Of a DNA stretch of 44,544 nucleotides, positions 39,948 to 44,544 are shown piece after piece. The stretch comes from an uncultured delta proteobacterium (GTDB lineage: Bacteria > Myxococcota_A > Bradymonadia > REDH01): assembly GCA_903873545.1 (NCBI GenBank), contig CAIQPA010000291.1, positions 1 through 44,544 of the forward strand. The letters are read 5' to 3'. Below the pieces are notes generated by a model. That model made no database searches, was not told the DNA's origin, and saw only the letters and a program-made list of their open reading frames with translations. Position 1 is the stretch's first letter. Every line of letters starts with the position of its first letter. The translations under genes and the position numbers were made by a program.

Positions 39948-40148
39948 ATGAGCAAGCAACGGCCAATGCCAAAGCAACAGGATTCGACCACGGATGTGGT
40001 CGCTGAGTCGGTCGGCCTCGAGGAGGCTGTATCGATGGGTCGTCGCGCTTACGAGGCCCCGAGCCTCGCGAAGAAGCGCTCTGTGGCGCGCGTTACGCTC
40101 TTCTCGGGCGGCGGCGTTTCGGCTGGCGGCCTCACGGCTTCCGGCTAG
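39948..40148 (+). CDS. Candidate RiPP precursor peptide with a lasso-type leader motif and a Gly/Ser/Ala core
   Basis: ORF 39843..40148. AAGGAG lies 7 nt upstream of ATG 39948, giving 66 aa: MSKQRPMPKQQDSTTDVVAESVGLEEAVSMGRRAYEAPSLAKKRSVARVTLFSGGGVSAGGLTASG. An internal ATG at 40035 with GAGGAGG 8 nt upstream would give 37 aa. YEAPSLAKKRSVARVTL fits YxxPxLxxxGxxxxxTx apart from G to R. A strong terminator follows, and B2 and PqqD genes lie downstream. Confidence 0.6.
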   Translation: MSKQRPMPKQQDSTTDVVAESVGLEEAVSMGRRAYEAPSLAKKRSVARVTLFSGGGVSAGGLTASG

Positions 40149-40177
40149 TCGGACCTCGTACCTCGGTTCGCCTGACA

Positions 40178-40217
40178 GGGCCGAACAAGTCTCGCGAGAG
40201 ACCTGTCGGCCCTTTTT
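40178..40217 (+). terminator. Rho-independent terminator/attenuator directly after the precursor ORF
   Basis: GGGCCGAACAAGTCTC-GCGA-GAGACCTGTCGGCCC is a long imperfect stem with one bulge and one mismatch. It is followed by TTTTT. Confidence 0.6.
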
Positions 40218-40418
40218 CGTGTCATCTTTCCCCCGTCGCTTCGGTGACGGAAAGAGACAGTCTGGGCGGCTCGTGGTGACAAATTCTGTCACATGTAGCG
40301 GGCTGTTGCATCAGATCTTCTTTTGATCTCATCTCGGCCGCTGTGCTACGCGGTAGCAGTCAGTAAACCCCGCGCGCAGCGCAACCCTTTTGGACCTCGT
40401 TTTTCGCTGGAGATTGTC

Positions 40419-42089
40419 ATGGCCCGCACGACGCTGAATTCGACCTCCCTCCTCGCGCTGCTTCGCGGGCCTTCGACCCTCACTGCTGCGACCCTCGTCG
40501 CCTCGCTCGCACTCGTTGCCTGCGGAGACGAAACGTCGGAGAAGACCGAGGATACGGGCACCTCGTGCAACCTCTTCACCGGTGAGGGCTGCGAGGATAC
40601 CGCGCCCGACACCACCGCGGACACCTCCACGGATACGGGCACGGCCGACACGACCGAGGAAGACACCAACGTGGAGGACACCGAGGTCGACACCGCGGTC
40701 GAGGACACGACGGTCGACACCGGAACCGACACCGGCGGCATCCAAGAGAGCTGCGGCAACGGCACGGACGACGATGGCGACGGCAACGCCGACTGCGCCG
40801 ACACGGATTGTGAGAACAACGCGGCCTGCTTGGAGTGCGACACCCTCAACGCCCGCGACTGCGAGCCCGACAACCGCGCCTGCGATGTTGTGGCCGGCCC
40901 CGACTCCTGCGGCGACTGCCTCGACACTTTCGTCGACCAAGCCGGCACCTGCATCTGCGACGCGACCATCTGCGACGCGGCGCCTGCCCCCTTCTGCCGC
41001 GGTAACAACCGGGTCGAGACGGCGCGCACCGCCTACGACATCGGCACCAGCTGTGAGTGCCGCGACGCAGAGACCGAGACGGCCTGCCCCACGGGCACCA
41101 ACTGCGACGGCGGCGTGTGCGTTGCAGTCCCCGTGACCGCGGACCCCTGGATCCTCTTCGTGCGTACGCCCGGCTCGGCCTGTGCTGAGCAGCAGGATTC
41201 GCAGATCTACGTCATCCGCGCCGACGGCACGGATGAGCGCCGCGTGACAAACCTTCCTGGCCAGAAGCTCGCCGCTCGTTGGTCGCCCGACGGCCGCTCC
41301 GTCTACTTCTCGATGAAGGTGACCGATTGCTCGGCGCCCGCGAACACCAACGTGGGCATCTACAAGCTCGCCATTGAGACGGGCGCCATCGAGCAGCTCA
41401 CCCCAGTCTGCCCCGAGCTCGCCTATCAGGGCAACCCCGACCCGACCGGCCTCCTCAGCGGCGGCTTCACGGTGGTTCCCGATGAGTCGGCAATCGTCTT
41501 CACCAACTTCTACAGCGGTGACTTCGGCCTCTTCACCCAGCCCCTCGACGCGAGCGGTGCCGCCTGCACCGTGCTCGTCGATAACGGCGGCAACGGCGAA
41601 GCCGACCCTGCGATCGCCGAGTGCGACCCGGCCACGGTCATCTACACCAAGCAGGCTGCTGGCGGCGCCGTGACGCTCTTCTCGGTCGGTGTTGACGGCG
41701 CCGGCAATGGCACCGCGAGCCTCACCGGCTACCTCGGCGCGCCCGCTATCAGCCCGGCCGGCACCTCGGCGCTCTGGACCAAGGACCTCGGCGGCGGCGC
41801 GACGCAGCTCTACAGCAACGCATTCAACTGCACGACGCACCGTACCTCGGGCACGCCGACGCCCGTCTCTGGCTCGACCAACGACAGCTCGCCCTCCTTC
41901 TTCCCCAACGGGAACCTGGTCGTGACCGAGCGCATCTTTGCCTCGGCCAGCGTTGTTCAGACCGAGATCATGGTGATCAATATCACCTCCGGTCTCACCA
42001 CCCGCATCACCACCAACGAGGTCCTCGATGGTGGTCCCCGCCCGGGTCTCATCGAAGCCACCACTCTCAATCCGGCGATCGCGCGCTAG
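40419..42089 (+). CDS. Lipoprotein with an acidic Asp/Thr-rich linker, a Cys-rich module and a TolB/PD40-like beta-propeller region
   Basis: ORF 40323..42089, start taken at ATG 40419 with GGAG 6 nt upstream. The signal peptide has a lipobox (LVASLALVAC|G). The (T/D/E)-rich linker is TEDTGT...DTSTDTGTADTTEEDTNVEDTEVDT. The Cys-rich stretch is CGNGTDDDGDGNADCADTDCENNAAC...CGDC. PD40-like repeat text is IYVIRADGTDERRVTN...ARWSPDGRSVYFS. Confidence 0.7.
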   Translation: MARTTLNSTSLLALLRGPSTLTAATLVASLALVACGDETSEKTEDTGTSCNLFTGEGCEDTAPDTTADTSTDTGTADTTEEDTNVEDTEVDTAVEDTTVDTGTDTGGIQESCGNGTDDDGDGNADCADTDCENNAACLECDTLNARDCEPDNRACDVVAGPDSCGDCLDTFVDQAGTCICDATICDAAPAPFCRGNNRVETARTAYDIGTSCECRDAETETACPTGTNCDGGVCVAVPVTADPWILFVRTPGSACAEQQDSQIYVIRADGTDERRVTNLPGQKLAARWSPDGRSVYFSMKVTDCSAPANTNVGIYKLAIETGAIEQLTPVCPELAYQGNPDPTGLLSGGFTVVPDESAIVFTNFYSGDFGLFTQPLDASGAACTVLVDNGGNGEADPAIAECDPATVIYTKQAAGGAVTLFSVGVDGAGNGTASLTGYLGAPAISPAGTSALWTKDLGGGATQLYSNAFNCTTHRTSGTPTPVSGSTNDSSPSFFPNGNLVVTERIFASASVVQTEIMVINITSGLTTRITTNEVLDGGPRPGLIEATTLNPAIAR

Positions 42090-43187: not shown

Positions 43188-43605
43188 CCTCCTTCAGGAG
43201 GTGGCAGCGGCGCCTGGTCTGGTAGCAGAGGTGGTGCTGCTGCGGGGCCTGCTTCCTGTTGCCCTCGAGAGGCTCCCCATGGACCGCCTCTTGCGCGGTC
43301 TGACGCCCGCGACGGCCCGCTTTGCGGGGCGCAGCGACGCCGAGGCGTTGGAGGCGGTAGAGCGGGCGACAGAGCTCGTGCTGCGGCGCGTGCGGGTCAC
43401 GCGGACAACCTGCCTGCTGCGGAGCCTGATCCGGTATCGCTGCCTGCGCGAGCGGGGCGTGGAGGTGGTCTTCAAGATGGGGCTCCGCGCGCGCGAAGGC
43501 GTGATGGAGGGACATGCTTGGATTGAACTTCGGGGGCAACCTGTGCTTGAGAGGGAGTCCACCGACTATCAGGTGACCTTCGTCTATCCACCCTCTGCCG
43601 CGTGA
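43165..43605 (+). CDS. Lasso-peptide B2-type transglutaminase-like cysteine protease (Transglut_core3 family)
   Basis: 146 aa. RTTCLLRSLIRYRCLRERG carries the catalytic Cys context. MEGHAWIELRGQPV carries the catalytic His, as in McjB-C-type proteins. The GTG start overlaps the rSAM gene by 23 nt, and TTG 43180 is an alternative start. Confidence 0.75.
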   Translation: MARRRLPSLLQEVAAAPGLVAEVVLLRGLLPVALERLPMDRLLRGLTPATARFAGRSDAEALEAVERATELVLRRVRVTRTTCLLRSLIRYRCLRERGVEVVFKMGLRAREGVMEGHAWIELRGQPVLERESTDYQVTFVYPPSAA

Positions 43606-43612
43606 GTCTGCC

Positions 43613-43900
43613 TTGGACCTCGAAACCACCCGCATCACCCCTAGCGCCCGTGTCATTCTCACCGAGATGCCCGACGGGAAGGGGGTGCTGCTCGATATGG
43701 ACACGAAGTTTTATTACGAGCTGAACGTGACCGGCGTCTTCATCTGGAAGCGTTTCGGCGGTCGCTCCAAGTTGGCTTCGGAGCTCGTGGCCGCGCTGGT
43801 CGAGGAGTTCGAGGTGACGGGCGCAGTCGCGGCGGAAGACCTCGCGGAGATGGTCGCGTCGCTGGCTGCAGACAAGCTGGTTGTCGTCGCGCTGGCCTAG
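43613..43900 (+). CDS. PqqD-family RiPP recognition element (lasso B1-like peptide chaperone)
   Basis: 95 aa, TTG start. VILTEMPDGKGVLLDMDTKFYYELNVTGVFIWKRF ... LVEEFEV...AAEDLAEMVASLAADKLV follows the PqqD/RRE pattern of beta strands, the Y.LN..G..IW box and a helical tail. Confidence 0.8.
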   Translation: MDLETTRITPSARVILTEMPDGKGVLLDMDTKFYYELNVTGVFIWKRFGGRSKLASELVAALVEEFEVTGAVAAEDLAEMVASLAADKLVVVALA

Positions 43901-44544
43901 CGCGGGCGGTTCGCTTCGGCGGTGAGCAGGTCGATGATGCAGTCCGGCCGCTCAAGCGCGTCGAGGCCCAGCAGGAGCTCGTAGGAGCGTCCGTGGGAGA
44001 CAAGGGCGAGGAGGGCGGCAAGGTGTTCTTCGGCGCCTGCGAGTTCGTCGACTGCGACGAGCGCAGAGGCGGTCATGAGGTTGCCGAGCGCGTCTGTTGG
44101 CGCGAGCGGCTCGAGGCGGGTTGTGGGCTCGCCCGTGATGCGTGGGAAGAGGAGCCAGTCGGGGTATCCGAGCGAGGCGCGGATTGCGCCAGGAAAGAGC
44201 AGGGCGGCCGGGTAGCTGCTCTTTCCGCTTTCGGCGGCCGCCGGGTTGGGGTGGCGCGCGGTGAGTCCGGCGAAGGCCTTCGCGGTCTTTGGCGAGAGGT
44301 TGAGGGGCTTGGGGAGTCCCCAAATGCAGCGGGCCGCGGGGTCGATGTAGAGGGTGTCGTCGCCCGCCAGCAGGCCTCCGCGCCGGAGCAGCGACAGGGT
44401 GGTGGTGGTCTTTCCGTGAGCGGCATCGCCGGCGACGAGGAGGGTGCCGAGGCCATCGAGCGAGACGAGGCCGGCGTGGAGGTGGAAGCGGTGGCGGAGG
44501 CGAAGCGCGACGGCGAGCGCGATGAGCAGGGTCGCGCTGCTGAA
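43897..44544 (-). CDS. HPr kinase-like P-loop protein (3' end inside the window, 5' end beyond the right edge)
   Basis: Absent from the ORF track because it is open at the window edge. Hand translation of the minus strand stays open for 215 codons: ...LGTLLVAGDAAHGKTTTTLSLLRRGGLLAGDDTLYID...LLLGLDALERPDCIIDLLTAEANRPR*. GDAAHGKT is a GxxxxGKT Walker A followed by GxLLAGDD, as in the HprK C-terminal domain. The stop shares CTAG with the PqqD gene. Confidence 0.65.
   Translation of the reverse strand, partial: FSSATLLIALAVALRLRHRFHLHAGLVSLDGLGTLLVAGDAAHGKTTTTLSLLRRGGLLAGDDTLYIDPAARCIWGLPKPLNLSPKTAKAFAGLTARHPNPAAAESGKSSYPAALLFPGAIRASLGYPDWLLFPRITGEPTTRLEPLAPTDALGNLMTASALVAVDELAGAEEHLAALLALVSHGRSYELLLGLDALERPDCIIDLLTAEANRPR

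What the first reader, a model, noticed from the sequence alone, without database searches (positions are those of the whole stretch)
39948..44544. Hybrid RiPP cluster pairing lasso leader-processing machinery (B2 protease plus PqqD RRE) with a radical SAM maturase and an HPrK-like kinase, with no lasso cyclase in view
The order is precursor, terminator, lipoprotein, rSAM (CxxxCxxC plus C-terminal Cys cluster), B2-type Cys protease (overlapping the rSAM gene by 23 nt), then the PqqD RRE. An HPr-kinase-like P-loop gene runs convergently. B2 and B1(PqqD) are the leader-recognition and leader-removal half of lasso biosynthesis. The ATP-dependent lactam synthetase (asparagine-synthetase-like C protein) is missing from the 4.6 kb seen, and the core lacks the acidic residue that enzyme needs. 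A radical SAM enzyme is instead translationally coupled to B2. I know of no characterised RiPP class with this combination. Plausible chemistries on such a core are epimerisation, C-C or ether cross-links involving Phe1 or Thr, or backbone modification, plus Ser/Thr phosphorylation by the kinase. NCBI family names such as HprK-related kinase A and HPr-rel-A system PqqD family peptide chaperone describe a similar uncharacterised co-occurrence. Whether these ORFs belong to those families needs an HMM search.
Basis: partly seen in the sequence, partly recalled or inferred. Interest (0 to 1): 0.9.

Follow-up and report, generated by a model that had tools for sequence, protein, structure and literature searches.

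The report
Lasso-like peptide cluster with radical-SAM enzyme
This gene cluster should make a small modified peptide using the leader-binding and leader-cutting proteins of lasso peptides, but with a radical SAM enzyme, a kinase and a nucleotidyltransferase in place of the ring-closing enzyme, and the same uncharacterised cassette recurs in at least six bacterial phyla.

Summary
Window 39948-44544 encodes:
- a 66-aa precursor with a lasso-register leader (Tyr-17, Pro-14, Leu-12, Thr-2)
- a terminator-like hairpin
- a lipoprotein
- a 359-aa radical SAM enzyme (CxxxCxxC plus a twitch-like CX13GX4C...CXXC)
- a B2 cysteine protease
- a PqqD-type RRE
- a convergent HPr-kinase-like gene

Near-identical metagenome contigs extend past the window. 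They show a PF14907 nucleotidyltransferase next to the kinase and no asparagine-synthetase-like cyclase within 10 kb.

The cassette recurs in about 60 loci from Myxococcota, anammox Planctomycetota, Nitrospirota, Acidobacteriota, Gemmatimonadota and others. None of them has a lasso cyclase, and only 4 of 47 distinct cores carry Asp/Glu at positions 7-9. No curated NCBIfam model claims the rSAM, RRE, kinase or precursor; only B2 passes its cutoff.

The nearest characterised relatives are paeninodin-type phosphorylated lasso peptides and the Bacillota "linear polyphosphorylated peptides" (2026). Both share the RRE, kinase and NTP-transferase module but lack an rSAM.

Verdict: a real, widespread and apparently uncharacterised RiPP family, best filed as a new variant of a known kind. 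The rSAM chemistry remains unknown.

The parts
38218..39033 (+). ABC transporter ATP-binding subunit, candidate exporter of the product
   Evidence: PF00005 108 bits; DrrA-like (TIGR01188, 174 bits, below cutoff). Lies directly upstream of the precursor. A homologous ATPase is found in 15 related loci. Its role in the cassette is inferred.
39030..39830 (+). ABC-2 type permease, overlapping the ATPase gene by 4 nt
   Evidence: PF01061 29.5 bits, above the gathering score. Membership of the cassette is inferred from position only.
39948..40148 (+). Precursor peptide gene (66 aa). Leader 39948-40100, with Y35-x-x-P38-x-L40...T50-L51. Predicted core 40101-40145, FSGGGVSAGGLTASG.
   Evidence: Read directly from the sequence. 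The same leader register, [YFW]xxPx[LIV]x9Tx, occurs next to the rSAM in 47 of 61 related loci. Sixteen metagenomic homologues keep the core almost invariant. No Pfam or NCBIfam model matches it.
40177..40218 (+). Terminator-like or attenuator hairpin followed by a U5 run, after the precursor gene
   Evidence: RNA fold of 40146-40225 gives -34 kcal/mol, z = -3.25, with 1 of 200 shuffles as stable. Function is inferred.
40419..42089 (+). Lipoprotein with acidic Cys-rich repeats and a PD40/TolB-like beta-propeller; probably accessory
   Evidence: Signal peptide plus lipobox ...LALVAC. PF07676 27 bits; NF033662 30.8 bits, below cutoff. Not conserved in other cassettes, apart from weak hits in 4 loci. 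Split in two in L001.
42108..43187 (+). Radical SAM enzyme with one twitch-like auxiliary-cluster motif and no fused RRE
   Evidence: PF04055 77 bits; SPASM 16.7 bits, below cutoff. Invariant Cys residues are C14, C18, C21, C232, C251, C252, C310 and C313. Best NCBIfam match is MftC at 80 bits against a cutoff of 265, so it belongs to no named family. AlphaFold2 model pLDDT 85; Foldseek top hits are SuiB, SkfB, BlsE, anSME and PqqE at TM about 0.6. 274 clusters at 50% identity match at E <= 1e-30.
43165..43605 (+). Lasso-type B2 leader peptidase (transglutaminase-like Cys protease). The start codon is uncertain: 43165, 43180 or 43201.
   Evidence: NF033537 54.8 bits against cutoff 33; PF13471 58 bits. 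Cys83 (TCLLRS), His117 (GHAW) and a downstream Glu are conserved in 20 homologues.
43613..43900 (+). Discrete PqqD-family RRE (B1-like leader-binding protein)
   Evidence: PF05402 56 bits. It scores higher against lasso B1 models (41.6 and 38 bits, both below cutoff) than against PQQ PqqD (17 bits) or ScmD (30 bits).
43897..44544 (-). C-terminal 215 aa of a 327-aa HPr-kinase-like P-loop kinase. The gene runs off the window and overlaps the PqqD stop by 4 nt.
   Evidence: PF07475 26 bits and TIGR04352 30 bits, both below cutoff. Full length comes from L001. The His135...GxxxxGK157T...D174D motif is conserved in 20 homologues. A PF14907 nucleotidyltransferase (379 aa, 108 bits) follows on the same strand beyond the window.

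Best explanation
This is a functional RiPP biosynthetic cassette of an uncharacterised family. In it, the lasso-peptide leader machinery has been combined with a radical SAM enzyme in place of the lasso cyclase.

Proposed pathway:
1. The 66-aa precursor is bound through its YxxPxL leader motif by the discrete PqqD-type RRE.
2. The RRE-bound precursor is presented to the radical SAM enzyme. That enzyme has no RRE of its own and carries one twitch-type auxiliary cluster. It installs the class-defining modification on the short core, FSGGGVSAGGLTASG. The core's composition leaves either a new cross-link involving Phe1 and/or Ser/Thr, or Calpha epimerisation.
3. The HPrK-like kinase (poly)phosphorylates a core Ser/Thr. 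Ser2 is the candidate here, because it sits 18 residues after the leader Tyr, the same register as the phospho-Ser of LppA.
4. The PF14907 nucleotidyltransferase homologue further decorates the phosphate.
5. The B2 cysteine protease, activated by the RRE, cuts after Thr50-Leu51 and releases a 15-residue product.
6. The adjacent ABC-2 transporter exports the product.

Shown here: the gene content, the catalytic motifs, the leader register, the absence of a cyclase and the cross-phylum co-conservation. Inferred: every enzymatic step, their order and the product.
For: Domain assignments and catalytic residues.

Leader register: it matches the lasso register exactly (Y-17, P-14, L-12, T-2) in the window and in 47 of 61 related loci.

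No fused RRE on the rSAM: the enzyme starts 13 residues before its CxxxCxxC motif, whereas RRE-fused maturase profiles align from about position 90-110. It therefore needs a discrete RRE.

No cyclase: no PP-loop (SGGxDS) ORF occurs in the window, in 10 kb downstream, or in about 60 related loci. The one exception is a genuine AsnB (MCGIFG N-terminus) 8.5 kb away in an EPS context.

Core composition: only 4 of 47 distinct cores have Asp/Glu at positions 7-9.

Co-occurrence: in 40 loci with full flanks, PqqD is present in 39, the kinase in 37, B2 in 32, PF14907 in 32 and all four in 29. B2 is present in 0 of 21 loci of more distant rSAMs.

Selection on the core: it is nearly invariant in 16 homologues whose N-terminal leader halves have diverged.

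Precedent for the kinase and NTP-transferase roles: PadeK, PsmK and PsmN (PMC9266682) and LppK and LppN (PMC13381572).
Against: - No product, transcript or enzyme activity has been observed for any member.
- The rSAM reaction cannot be derived from sequence. Fold and profile matches are generic for RiPP maturases, with TM about 0.6.
- The kinase Walker A in this organism deviates from the family consensus (GDAAHGKT against GxSGxGK[ST]).
- B2 or PF14907 were not detected in about 20% of loci with full flanks.
- In one contig of the same population the kinase gene is disrupted. The kinase may therefore be dispensable, or the contig misassembled.
- The phosphorylation-site register argument holds only for the Myxococcota subfamily.
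- The literature search covers open-access papers only.
Confidence: 0.65

Rival explanations
1. The cassette makes a linear phosphopeptide, a Gram-negative analogue of the Bacillota LPPs. (Poly)phosphorylation by the HPrK-like kinase, plus decoration by the NTP-transferase, is the defining modification. B2 merely replaces the SpI-type peptidase. The rSAM is a tailoring enzyme, for example a Calpha epimerase that leaves the mass unchanged.
For: The RRE, HprK-kinase, NTP-transferase, transporter and YxxP-leader module is the LPP core set. Ser/Thr2 of the Myxococcota cores sits in the same register as LppA phospho-Ser3. Several Myxococcota loci and the window lie beside polysaccharide or glycosylation genes, as LPP clusters do. 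The core has no residue pair used by known rSAM cross-links.
Against: The rSAM is the most strongly conserved gene of the cassette and tracks the core type across phyla. That pattern is what one expects of a class-defining enzyme rather than an optional tailoring one. The kinase is disrupted in one population variant. The cores (6-18 aa) are far shorter than the 45-aa LPP core.
Confidence: 0.22
2. This is a split lasso pathway. A lasso cyclase encoded elsewhere in the genome acts in trans, and the rSAM, kinase and NTP-transferase are tailoring enzymes of a true lasso peptide.
For: The leader, B1 and B2 are lasso-type. Kinases and NTP-transferases are known lasso tailoring enzymes.
Against: The core FSGGGVSAGGLTASG has no Asp or Glu at all, and only 4 of 47 distinct cores have one at positions 7-9. 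Position 1 is usually Phe, whereas characterised lasso cores start with a small residue (my knowledge of the class, not tested here). No cyclase lies within +/-10 kb in about 60 loci from seven or so phyla. Whole genomes could not be scanned.
Confidence: 0.04
3. The cassette makes a peptide-derived small molecule, a cofactor or signal in the manner of PQQ or mycofactocin. The rSAM plus PqqD pair modifies a conserved residue pair, and proteolysis then trims the peptide to a small product.
For: The rSAM's best profile matches are MftC and PqqE. The pattern of an invariant core with a diverging leader resembles PqqA and MftA. The cassette is single-copy and conserved across whole lineages.
Against: No conserved oxidoreductase partners appear in the neighbourhoods; the conserved neighbours are transporters, secreted proteins, and sulfotransferase-like and HTTM proteins. 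ABC exporters adjoin the cassette. The core lacks the Glu/Tyr pair or the C-terminal Tyr used in PQQ and mycofactocin.
Confidence: 0.07
4. This is a decayed or chance arrangement: a remnant of a lasso cluster next to an unrelated radical SAM gene, with no joint function.
For: The kinase P-loop is atypical in this organism, and the kinase is broken in one contig.
Against: The same gene set with intact catalytic motifs recurs in many phyla at 30-55% identity, with matching precursors. Genes are tightly packed or overlapping.
Confidence: 0.02

Closest known systems
Paeninodin/pseudomycoidin-type phosphorylated lasso peptide clusters (A, B1, B2, C, HPrK-like kinase K, NTP-transferase N, transporter D)
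   Same: Leader with [Y/W]xxP...T-2. A discrete PqqD-type RRE. A B2 transglutaminase-like peptidase above the NCBIfam cutoff. [quoted passage not shown] An 'uncharacterised nucleotidyltransferase'.
   Different: No asparagine-synthetase-like cyclase. No Asp/Glu acceptor in the core, and Phe rather than a small residue at core position 1. No conserved C-terminal Ser, which is the kinase site in paeninodin. A radical SAM enzyme is added. Found in Gram-negative phyla.
Linear polyphosphorylated peptides (LPP) of Bacillota (Popov et al., Nat Commun 2026, PMC13381572)
   Same: [quoted passage not shown] Often sits beside polysaccharide genes. The phospho-Ser register (Tyr+18) matches Ser/Thr2 of the Myxococcota cores.
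   Different: [quoted passage not shown] LPP has an MsbA-type exporter rather than an ABC-2 type. Its core is 45 aa rather than 6-18 aa. It has no radical SAM enzyme and is reported as restricted to Bacillota.
SynChlorMet (SCM) cassette, an in-silico NCBIfam/TIGRFAM system: ScmC (HPrK-like), ScmD (PqqD-like), ScmE and ScmF (rSAM/SPASM)
   Same: It combines a PqqD-like RRE, an HPrK-like P-loop protein and radical SAM enzymes. Near-SCM loci recovered here also carry PF14907.
   Different: SCM has two full-SPASM rSAMs and no B2 (0 of 21 distant loci). The window proteins score far below the SCM cutoffs: ScmE 74 against 400, ScmD 30 against 100, and ScmC 16 against 125 for the Polyangium aurulentum kinase, with no ScmC hit for this organism's kinase.
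PQQ and mycofactocin pathways (PqqD/MftB RRE plus PqqE/MftC rSAM)
   Same: A discrete PqqD-family chaperone delivers a small precursor to an RRE-less rSAM/SPASM-type enzyme. MftC and PqqE are the best profile matches of the rSAM.
   Different: Scores lie far below the family cutoffs (80 against 265; 68 against 381). The core lacks the Glu/Tyr pair or the C-terminal Val-Tyr. B2, the kinase and the NTP-transferase are absent from those pathways.
HPr-rel-A system (TIGR04352 HprK-related kinase A and its PqqD partner)
   Same: TIGR04352 is the best-scoring named model for the kinase.
   Different: It scores 28-53 bits against a cutoff of 200, so this is not a member. The HPr-rel-A PqqD model did not appear among the hits for the RRE.

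Membership tests
Lasso peptide biosynthetic gene cluster | Leader peptide with YxxP...Thr at position -2, recognised by B1 | tested here: met
   Y35, P38, L40 and T50 of a 51-residue leader correspond to positions -17, -14, -12 and -2. The same register occurs in 47 of 61 related loci.
Lasso peptide biosynthetic gene cluster | B2 transglutaminase-like leader peptidase | tested here: met
   NF033537 54.8 bits against cutoff 33; PF13471 58 bits; Cys83 and His117 conserved.
Lasso peptide biosynthetic gene cluster | B1 PqqD-type RRE | tested here: inconclusive
   PF05402 scores 56 bits, above its cutoff. The lasso-specific models NF033530 and NF033536 score 41.6 and 38 bits, below their cutoffs of 70 and 80.
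Lasso peptide biosynthetic gene cluster | ATP-dependent lasso cyclase (asparagine-synthetase homologue, PF00733) | tested here: not met
   No such gene appears in the Pfam-annotated genes 10 kb either side in L001-L006. No PP-loop SGGxDS ORF occurs in the 44.5-kb window or in about 60 related loci, apart from a true AsnB 8.5 kb away in L065. Whole genomes were not searched.
Lasso peptide biosynthetic gene cluster | Core with Asp/Glu at position 7-9 as macrolactam acceptor | tested here: not met
   The core FSGGGVSAGGLTASG has no acidic residue. Only 4 of 47 distinct cores in the family have one at positions 7-9.
Linear polyphosphorylated peptides (LPP) | Discrete RRE plus YxxP leader plus HprK-like kinase plus NTP-transferase, without a cyclase | tested here: met
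Linear polyphosphorylated peptides (LPP) | Archaeal-type signal peptidase I (LppS) as leader peptidase | tested here: not met
   All genes of the cassette are accounted for, and none is a signal peptidase. The peptidase present is B2.
Linear polyphosphorylated peptides (LPP) | Polyphosphorylation of a core Ser as the primary modification | not testable with these tools
   This needs mass spectrometry. The only evidence here is the conserved kinase motif and the matching Ser register.
HPr-rel-A system (TIGR04352) | Kinase scoring above the TIGR04352 trusted cutoff | tested here: not met
   28.4 bits (full length) and 30.5 bits (window part) against a cutoff of 200. The Brocadia homologue scores 52.8.
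SynChlorMet (SCM) cassette | ScmC, ScmD, ScmE and ScmF above their cutoffs | tested here: not met
   ScmE 73.9 and ScmF 73.8 against 400; ScmD 30.3 against 100. ScmC gives no hit for this organism and 16.4 against 125 for P. aurulentum.
Radical SAM/SPASM RiPP maturases | CxxxCxxC radical SAM core plus a C-terminal auxiliary-cluster domain | tested here: met
   PF04055 77 bits. The invariant CX13GX4C...CXXC pattern has 5 Cys, which is twitch-like; the SPASM Pfam model scores below its cutoff. Foldseek matches SuiB, SkfB, anSME and PqqE.
Known rSAM cross-link classes (sacti/ranthipeptide, streptide, ryptide, darobactin, triceptide, PQQ, mycofactocin) | Presence in the core of the residues each chemistry needs (Cys; Lys-Trp; Arg-Tyr; Trp; aromatic-X-X with a Cbeta at X3; Glu-Tyr; C-terminal Val-Tyr) | tested here: not met
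   The core FSGGGVSAGGLTASG has no Cys, Trp, Tyr, Lys, Arg or Glu. Its only aromatic-X-X triplet is Phe-Ser-Gly, whose third residue has no Cbeta (read directly from the sequence). The residue requirements come from my knowledge of those classes.

The most novel reading that the evidence does not exclude
This would be a phylogenetically broad RiPP class in Myxococcota, anammox Planctomycetota, Nitrospirota, Acidobacteriota, Gemmatimonadota and others. In it, the lasso leader-recognition and cleavage machinery has been rewired to a twitch-type radical SAM enzyme that takes the place of the lasso cyclase. That enzyme would perform a chemistry not yet described, on Phe/Ser/Thr/Gly-rich cores that contain none of the residues used by known rSAM cross-links. 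The product would also be phosphorylated and further decorated on the phosphate. Because its core is conserved rather than hypervariable, it may serve a physiological role, such as a surface, polysaccharide-linked or signalling function, rather than acting as an antibiotic.
Probability: 0.4. Interest if true: 0.8.

Novelty: new variant of a known kind. Interest (0 to 1): 0.65.

Why it matters
Lasso B1/B2 proteins are treated as markers of lasso peptides, and NCBI's model would name this B2 'lasso peptide biosynthesis B2 protein'. This family shows the same leader machinery serving a radical SAM enzyme instead of the cyclase.

It also links three groups that have been described separately:
- phosphorylated lasso peptides
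- the recently described linear polyphosphorylated peptides of Bacillota
- the in-silico SCM radical-SAM cassettes

All three share one RRE plus HPrK-kinase plus NTP-transferase module. This family extends that module to Gram-negative and environmentally important lineages, including anammox bacteria, Nitrospira, soil Acidobacteriota and Polyangia.

The core composition rules out the known rSAM cross-links, so characterisation is likely to reveal new enzymology. Cultured hosts (Polyangium aurulentum, P. jinanense) carry the cassette, and the system has only five or six genes, so it can be tested directly.

Tried and rejected
1. Looked for a cyclase. I read 10 kb past the window on contigs of the same population, scanned all six-frame ORFs of 89 sequences for the PP-loop motif (strict and relaxed), and ran phmmer with the one AsnB found. 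Nothing turned up beyond a genuine AsnB with an MCGIFG N-terminus.

2. This was rejected on score.

3. Tested whether the lipoprotein is part of the cassette. It is not conserved.

4. All-against-all clustering of neighbouring ORFs was confounded by stop-to-stop ORF fusions and antisense ORFs. It was used only to pick accessory genes for Pfam scans.

5. The simple terminator scan missed the post-precursor hairpin. RNA folding was used instead.

6. Eight literature searches found no paper describing rSAM plus B1 plus B2 plus kinase. One of them was wasted because 'ScmC' matched unrelated acronyms. RRE-Finder (2020) noted only that about 300 'lasso-type' discrete RREs co-occur with rSAM enzymes and treated them as false positives. 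The minviopeptin paper proved unrelated. Two papers could not be retrieved.

7. Structure and profile comparison of the rSAM gave only generic RiPP-maturase matches and no clue to the reaction.

8. I considered triceptide-type cyclophane formation on Phe. It was rejected for this core because the third residue of the Phe-Ser-Gly triplet is Gly.

Full report
**What is in the window**

- An ABC ATPase (38218-39033) and an ABC-2 permease (39030-39830) precede the cluster.
- The precursor is a 66-aa ORF at 39948-40148, with GGAG 9 nt upstream of its ATG. It reads MSKQ...GRRAYEAPSLAKKRSVARVTLFSGGGVSAGGLTASG.
- Counting back from the Leu51|Phe52 junction, Tyr35, Pro38, Leu40 and Thr50 fall at positions -17, -14, -12 and -2. 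That is the register of lasso-peptide leaders recognised by B1 proteins (the motif is quoted in PMC13381572 and PMC12710340).
- The predicted 15-residue core contains no Asp, Glu, Cys, Trp, Tyr, Lys or Arg.
- A bulged GC-rich hairpin with a U5 tail follows at 40177-40218. It folds at -34 kcal/mol with z = -3.25.
- Next come a lipoprotein (40419-42089), the radical SAM gene (42108-43187), B2 (43165-43605), the PqqD-type RRE (43613-43900) and, convergently, an HPrK-like kinase that runs off the window (43897-44544).
- Only B2 passes a curated NCBIfam cutoff: NF033537 at 54.8 bits against 33.
- The rSAM's best named match is MftC at 80 bits against a cutoff of 265.
- The RRE scores best against lasso B1 models, but below their cutoffs.
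- The kinase scores 28-30 bits against TIGR04352, whose cutoff is 200.
- The B2 start is ambiguous: GTG 43165, TTG 43180 or GTG 43201. The homologue alignment shows conserved sequence upstream of the ATG 43279 chosen by metagenome gene callers, so rSAM and B2 are at least abutting and may overlap by 23 nt.

**Beyond the window**

The exact rSAM protein is on record on at least 20 metagenome contigs. Six of these were fetched (L001-L006) and are 91-99% identical to the window at DNA level. They show four things:

- The kinase is 327 aa long.
- A 379-aa PF14907 'uncharacterised nucleotidyltransferase' (108 bits) lies immediately beside it on the same strand.
- An unrelated MoxR/DUF58/TgpA operon follows.
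- No asparagine-synthetase-like gene and no second precursor occur within 10 kb.

Public records call the rSAM 'radical SAM protein' and the precursors 'hypothetical protein', from uncultured 'Deltaproteobacteria' MAGs.

**The cassette is a conserved family**

The rSAM has more than 500 homologues at E <= 1e-10 in the 90%-clustered collection. In the exhaustive search, 274 clusters at 50% identity match at E <= 1e-30.

A scan of one genome per species returned 80 loci.
- About 50% identity: Polyangia, including Polyangium aurulentum, P. jinanense and Byssovorax. Minicystis appears at the same level among the protein hits.
- 30-40% identity: Ca. Brocadia pituitae, Jettenia, Anammoxibacter, Nitrospira, many Pyrinomonadaceae and Blastocatellia, Longimicrobium and Gemmatimonadaceae, Competibacteraceae and a Thermodesulfobacteriota MAG.

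I searched six-frame ORFs of all loci, first with the window proteins and then with profiles built from the hits.
- Among 40 loci with at least 5 kb on both sides of the rSAM, a PqqD is present in 39, the kinase in 37, B2 in 32, PF14907 in 32 and all four in 29.
- In 21 loci of more distant rSAMs, B2 is present in none.

Gene order differs between phyla:
- Polyangia: A-rSAM-B2-PqqD-K.
- Brocadia: A-K-rSAM-PqqD-B2-N.
- Nitrospira: B2-A-K-rSAM-PqqD-N.

The association is therefore maintained by selection, not by shared synteny.

Catalytic residues are conserved throughout:
- rSAM: C14/C18/C21 plus C232-X13-G-X4-C251-C252...C310-X2-C313.
- B2: Cys in TCLxRS and His in GHAW.
- Kinase: His...GxSGxGK[ST]...DD, matching the His-Lys-Asp-Asp motif reported as essential in lasso kinases.

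**Precursors**

A search for [YFW]xxPx[LIVMF]x9Tx close to a C-terminus finds a matching small ORF beside the cassette in 47 of 61 family loci. The cores fall into lineage-specific types:

| Lineage | Core examples |
|---|---|
| Polyangia | FSGGGVSAGGLTASG, FTAMGPAMTGLTFMG, FSGHGAMGASGLTSS |
| Acidobacteriota | FFQAATSGATN and close variants |
| Anammox bacteria, Nitrospira and others | GFFGSFAPYE, AFFGTFSPGNRPQ, GFFGPFSP |
| Longimicrobium | LTAPIDGNCGTGGSTCF and LTVVIP |

- Only 4 of 47 distinct cores have Asp/Glu at positions 7-9.
- Sixteen metagenomic homologues of the window precursor keep the core almost invariant while the N-terminal half of the leader diverges beyond recognition.
- This is the opposite of the hypervariable-core pattern of many antibiotic RiPPs. 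It points to a product under strong functional constraint.

**No cyclase**

- The PP-loop motif SGGxDS occurs in only one ORF of at least 250 aa among all 89 sequences. The relaxed form S[GA]GxD[ST], scanned in ORFs of at least 300 aa, finds the same one.
- That ORF is a protein in L065, 8.5 kb from the rSAM. It starts MCGIFG, so it is a genuine glutamine-dependent AsnB, and it lies among Wzc and WecA-type polysaccharide genes.
- Together with the core composition, this makes a lasso macrolactam very unlikely.
- A cyclase elsewhere in the genomes could not be excluded directly.

**The radical SAM enzyme**

- It begins 13 residues before the CxxxCxxC motif. RRE-fused maturase profiles (StsB, SkfB, TrsS) align to it only from their positions 88-107 onwards.
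- It therefore has no RRE of its own and should depend on the discrete PqqD, as PqqE does on PqqD.
- The C-terminal domain has five invariant Cys. That is enough for one auxiliary cluster, so it is twitch-like, and the SPASM Pfam model scores below its threshold.
- An AlphaFold2 model (pLDDT 85, pTM 0.83) matches SuiB, SkfB, BlsE, anSME and PqqE at TM about 0.6. PqqE and SkfB lead the sequence-profile search of PDB.
- This places it among peptide-modifying rSAM/SPASM-twitch enzymes but does not identify the reaction.
- By composition, the core cannot undergo thioether, Lys-Trp, Arg-Tyr, Trp-based, Glu-Tyr or C-terminal Tyr chemistry, and the Phe-Ser-Gly triplet lacks a Cbeta at position 3.
- What remains is epimerisation, Ser/Thr-derived ether formation, or a new cross-link involving the Phe that is conserved at or near the N-terminus of most core types. 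This is inference.

**Comparison with what is known**

HPrK-like kinases and a nucleotidyltransferase homologue are established tailoring enzymes of paeninodin-type lasso peptides.
- PadeK, ThcoK and PsmK (poly)phosphorylate the C-terminal Ser of the precursor.
- PsmN adds hexose to the phosphate (PMC9266682; PMC7533575).

In May 2026, Popov et al. described linear polyphosphorylated peptides (LPP) in Bacillota.
- They have a YxxP leader, a discrete RRE, the HprK-like kinase LppK acting on core Ser3, the NTP-transferase LppN, an SpI-type leader peptidase and an MsbA exporter.
- They have no cyclase and are often embedded in capsule loci.
- They are stated to be restricted to Bacillota, and the paper does not mention radical SAM enzymes (PMC13381572).

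The present family shares the RRE, kinase and NTP-transferase module and the lack of a cyclase. It differs in keeping B2, having a different exporter type, much shorter cores, a radical SAM enzyme and an entirely different phyletic range.

Aligning the LPP motif YxxPxVLxHQxIxFETxxS with YEAPSLAKKRSVARVTLFS puts the phosphorylated Ser of LppA opposite Ser2 of the window core, both 18 residues after the leader Tyr. That makes Ser53 the best candidate kinase site. The match does not extend to the other core types.

On the radical SAM side, the distant loci recovered here (for example L082) are near-SCM cassettes.
- They score ScmE 392 against 400, ScmF 364 against 400 and ScmD 63 against 100.
- They also carry an HPrK-like P-loop protein and PF14907, but never B2.

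The RRE plus HPrK-like plus PF14907 module thus appears with four different partners:
1. A lasso cyclase (paeninodin).
2. Nothing (LPP).
3. Two SPASM rSAMs (SCM).
4. One twitch rSAM plus B2 (this family).

RRE-Finder (2020) recorded about 300 'lasso-type' discrete RREs that co-occur with rSAM enzymes. It treated them as false positives and did not follow them up (PMC7470986). I found no paper that characterises this combination, but only open-access literature was searchable.

**Mechanism proposed**

1. The RRE binds the YxxPxL leader.
2. The rSAM modifies the core.
3. The kinase phosphorylates Ser/Thr.
4. PF14907 decorates the phosphate.
5. B2, activated by the RRE, cleaves after Thr50-Leu51.
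6. The ABC-2 system exports the product.

The order of steps is inferred from lasso and LPP precedent, where the kinase acts on the uncleaved precursor and the unphosphorylated precursor is cleaved poorly.

The conserved core may point to a physiological, perhaps surface-associated, role. Neighbouring glycosylation or polysaccharide genes point the same way:
- in the window itself: an epimerase, two DegT aminotransferases and two TMEM260-like transferases;
- in several Polyangia loci: Wzc, WecA and glycosyltransferases beside the cassette.

This remains a lead without a control.

**Verdict**

The cassette is real, under selection, widespread and, as far as I can find, uncharacterised. It is a new variant within the known world of RRE-dependent RiPPs related to phosphorylated lasso peptides and LPPs. 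The unknown radical SAM chemistry is the main prize.

Noticed in passing
window 14269-23781: A type IV pilus gene block: PilB-like ATPase (T2SSE plus MshEN), PilT-like ATPase, PilC (T2SSF), PilS-like sensor kinase, PilR-like sigma-54 activator, and three ORFs with the N-terminal methylation (pilin) motif.
   Followed up: partly
window 24842-34283: A nucleotide-sugar and glycosylation block: NAD-dependent epimerase/dehydratase, two DegT/DnrJ/EryC1 aminotransferases, a second ABC/ABC-2 transporter pair and two TMEM260-like O-mannosyltransferase-like membrane proteins. It lies between the pilus genes and the RiPP cassette. LPP and paeninodin clusters likewise sit in polysaccharide loci.
   Followed up: partly
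window 36989-38218: An Mrp/ApbC-type Fe-S cluster carrier (PF10609 313 bits, plus an FeS_assembly_P domain) ends exactly where the cassette's ABC ATPase gene starts. This could be coincidence, or a supply of Fe-S clusters for the radical SAM enzyme.
   Followed up: no
L003 11990-12091 (corresponds to window about 44097-44341) and L001 8312-9982: Two contigs of the same population carry broken genes. In L003 (98.8% identical) the kinase gene is interrupted: about 243 bp are replaced by 100 bp. In L001 the lipoprotein gene is split into two ORFs. Either these genes are dispensable in parts of the population or the contigs are misassembled.
   Followed up: partly
P0271-P0286 (homologues of window 39948-40148): The core FSGGGV[ST]AGGLTASG is nearly invariant in 16 metagenomic precursors whose N-terminal leader halves share no recognisable similarity. 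Conserved core with variable leader is the reverse of the usual antibiotic-RiPP pattern.
   Followed up: partly
L027 8753-8962, L028 4782-4988, L035 8744-8941, L039 8225-8437: Precursors of anammox bacteria and Competibacteraceae carry a tandem duplication of the RRE-binding motif (...F[AT]EPKL[TQ]-FIEPKLTK...). This may give two RRE-binding sites per leader.
   Followed up: no
L056 11085-12143, L051 12958-13863, L048 7568-8455 and equivalents in about 15-19 Acidobacteriota loci: Acidobacterial versions of the cassette have extra conserved genes: a weak sulfotransferase-like protein (PF13469, 19.6 bits, below cutoff) between the rSAM and PqqD, an HTTM-domain membrane protein, and an unannotated 287-aa protein (secretion not tested). 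Many Polyangia versions instead carry a SAM-methyltransferase-like gene, and P. aurulentum carries an FGE-sulfatase-domain gene.
   Followed up: partly
L071-L082 (for example L082 9645-13736 and 18325-19569): Loci of more distant rSAMs, from Chloroflexota and others, are near-threshold SynChlorMet cassettes (ScmE 392 against 400, ScmF 364 against 400, ScmD 63 against 100). They also contain an HPrK-like P-loop protein and a PF14907 nucleotidyltransferase but no B2. This suggests a wider RRE/kinase/NTP-transferase module shared with lasso and LPP systems.
   Followed up: partly
L036 9628-9960 and 11543-11689; L037 9604-9951 and 12441-12698: Longimicrobium loci encode two different precursors with the same leader register but unlike cores. 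One is Cys-containing (LTAPIDGNCGTGGSTCF) and one is six residues long (LTVVIP). A B2 homologue was missed by phmmer in L036 but was not reported missing after the profile search; L037 lacks full flanks.
   Followed up: no
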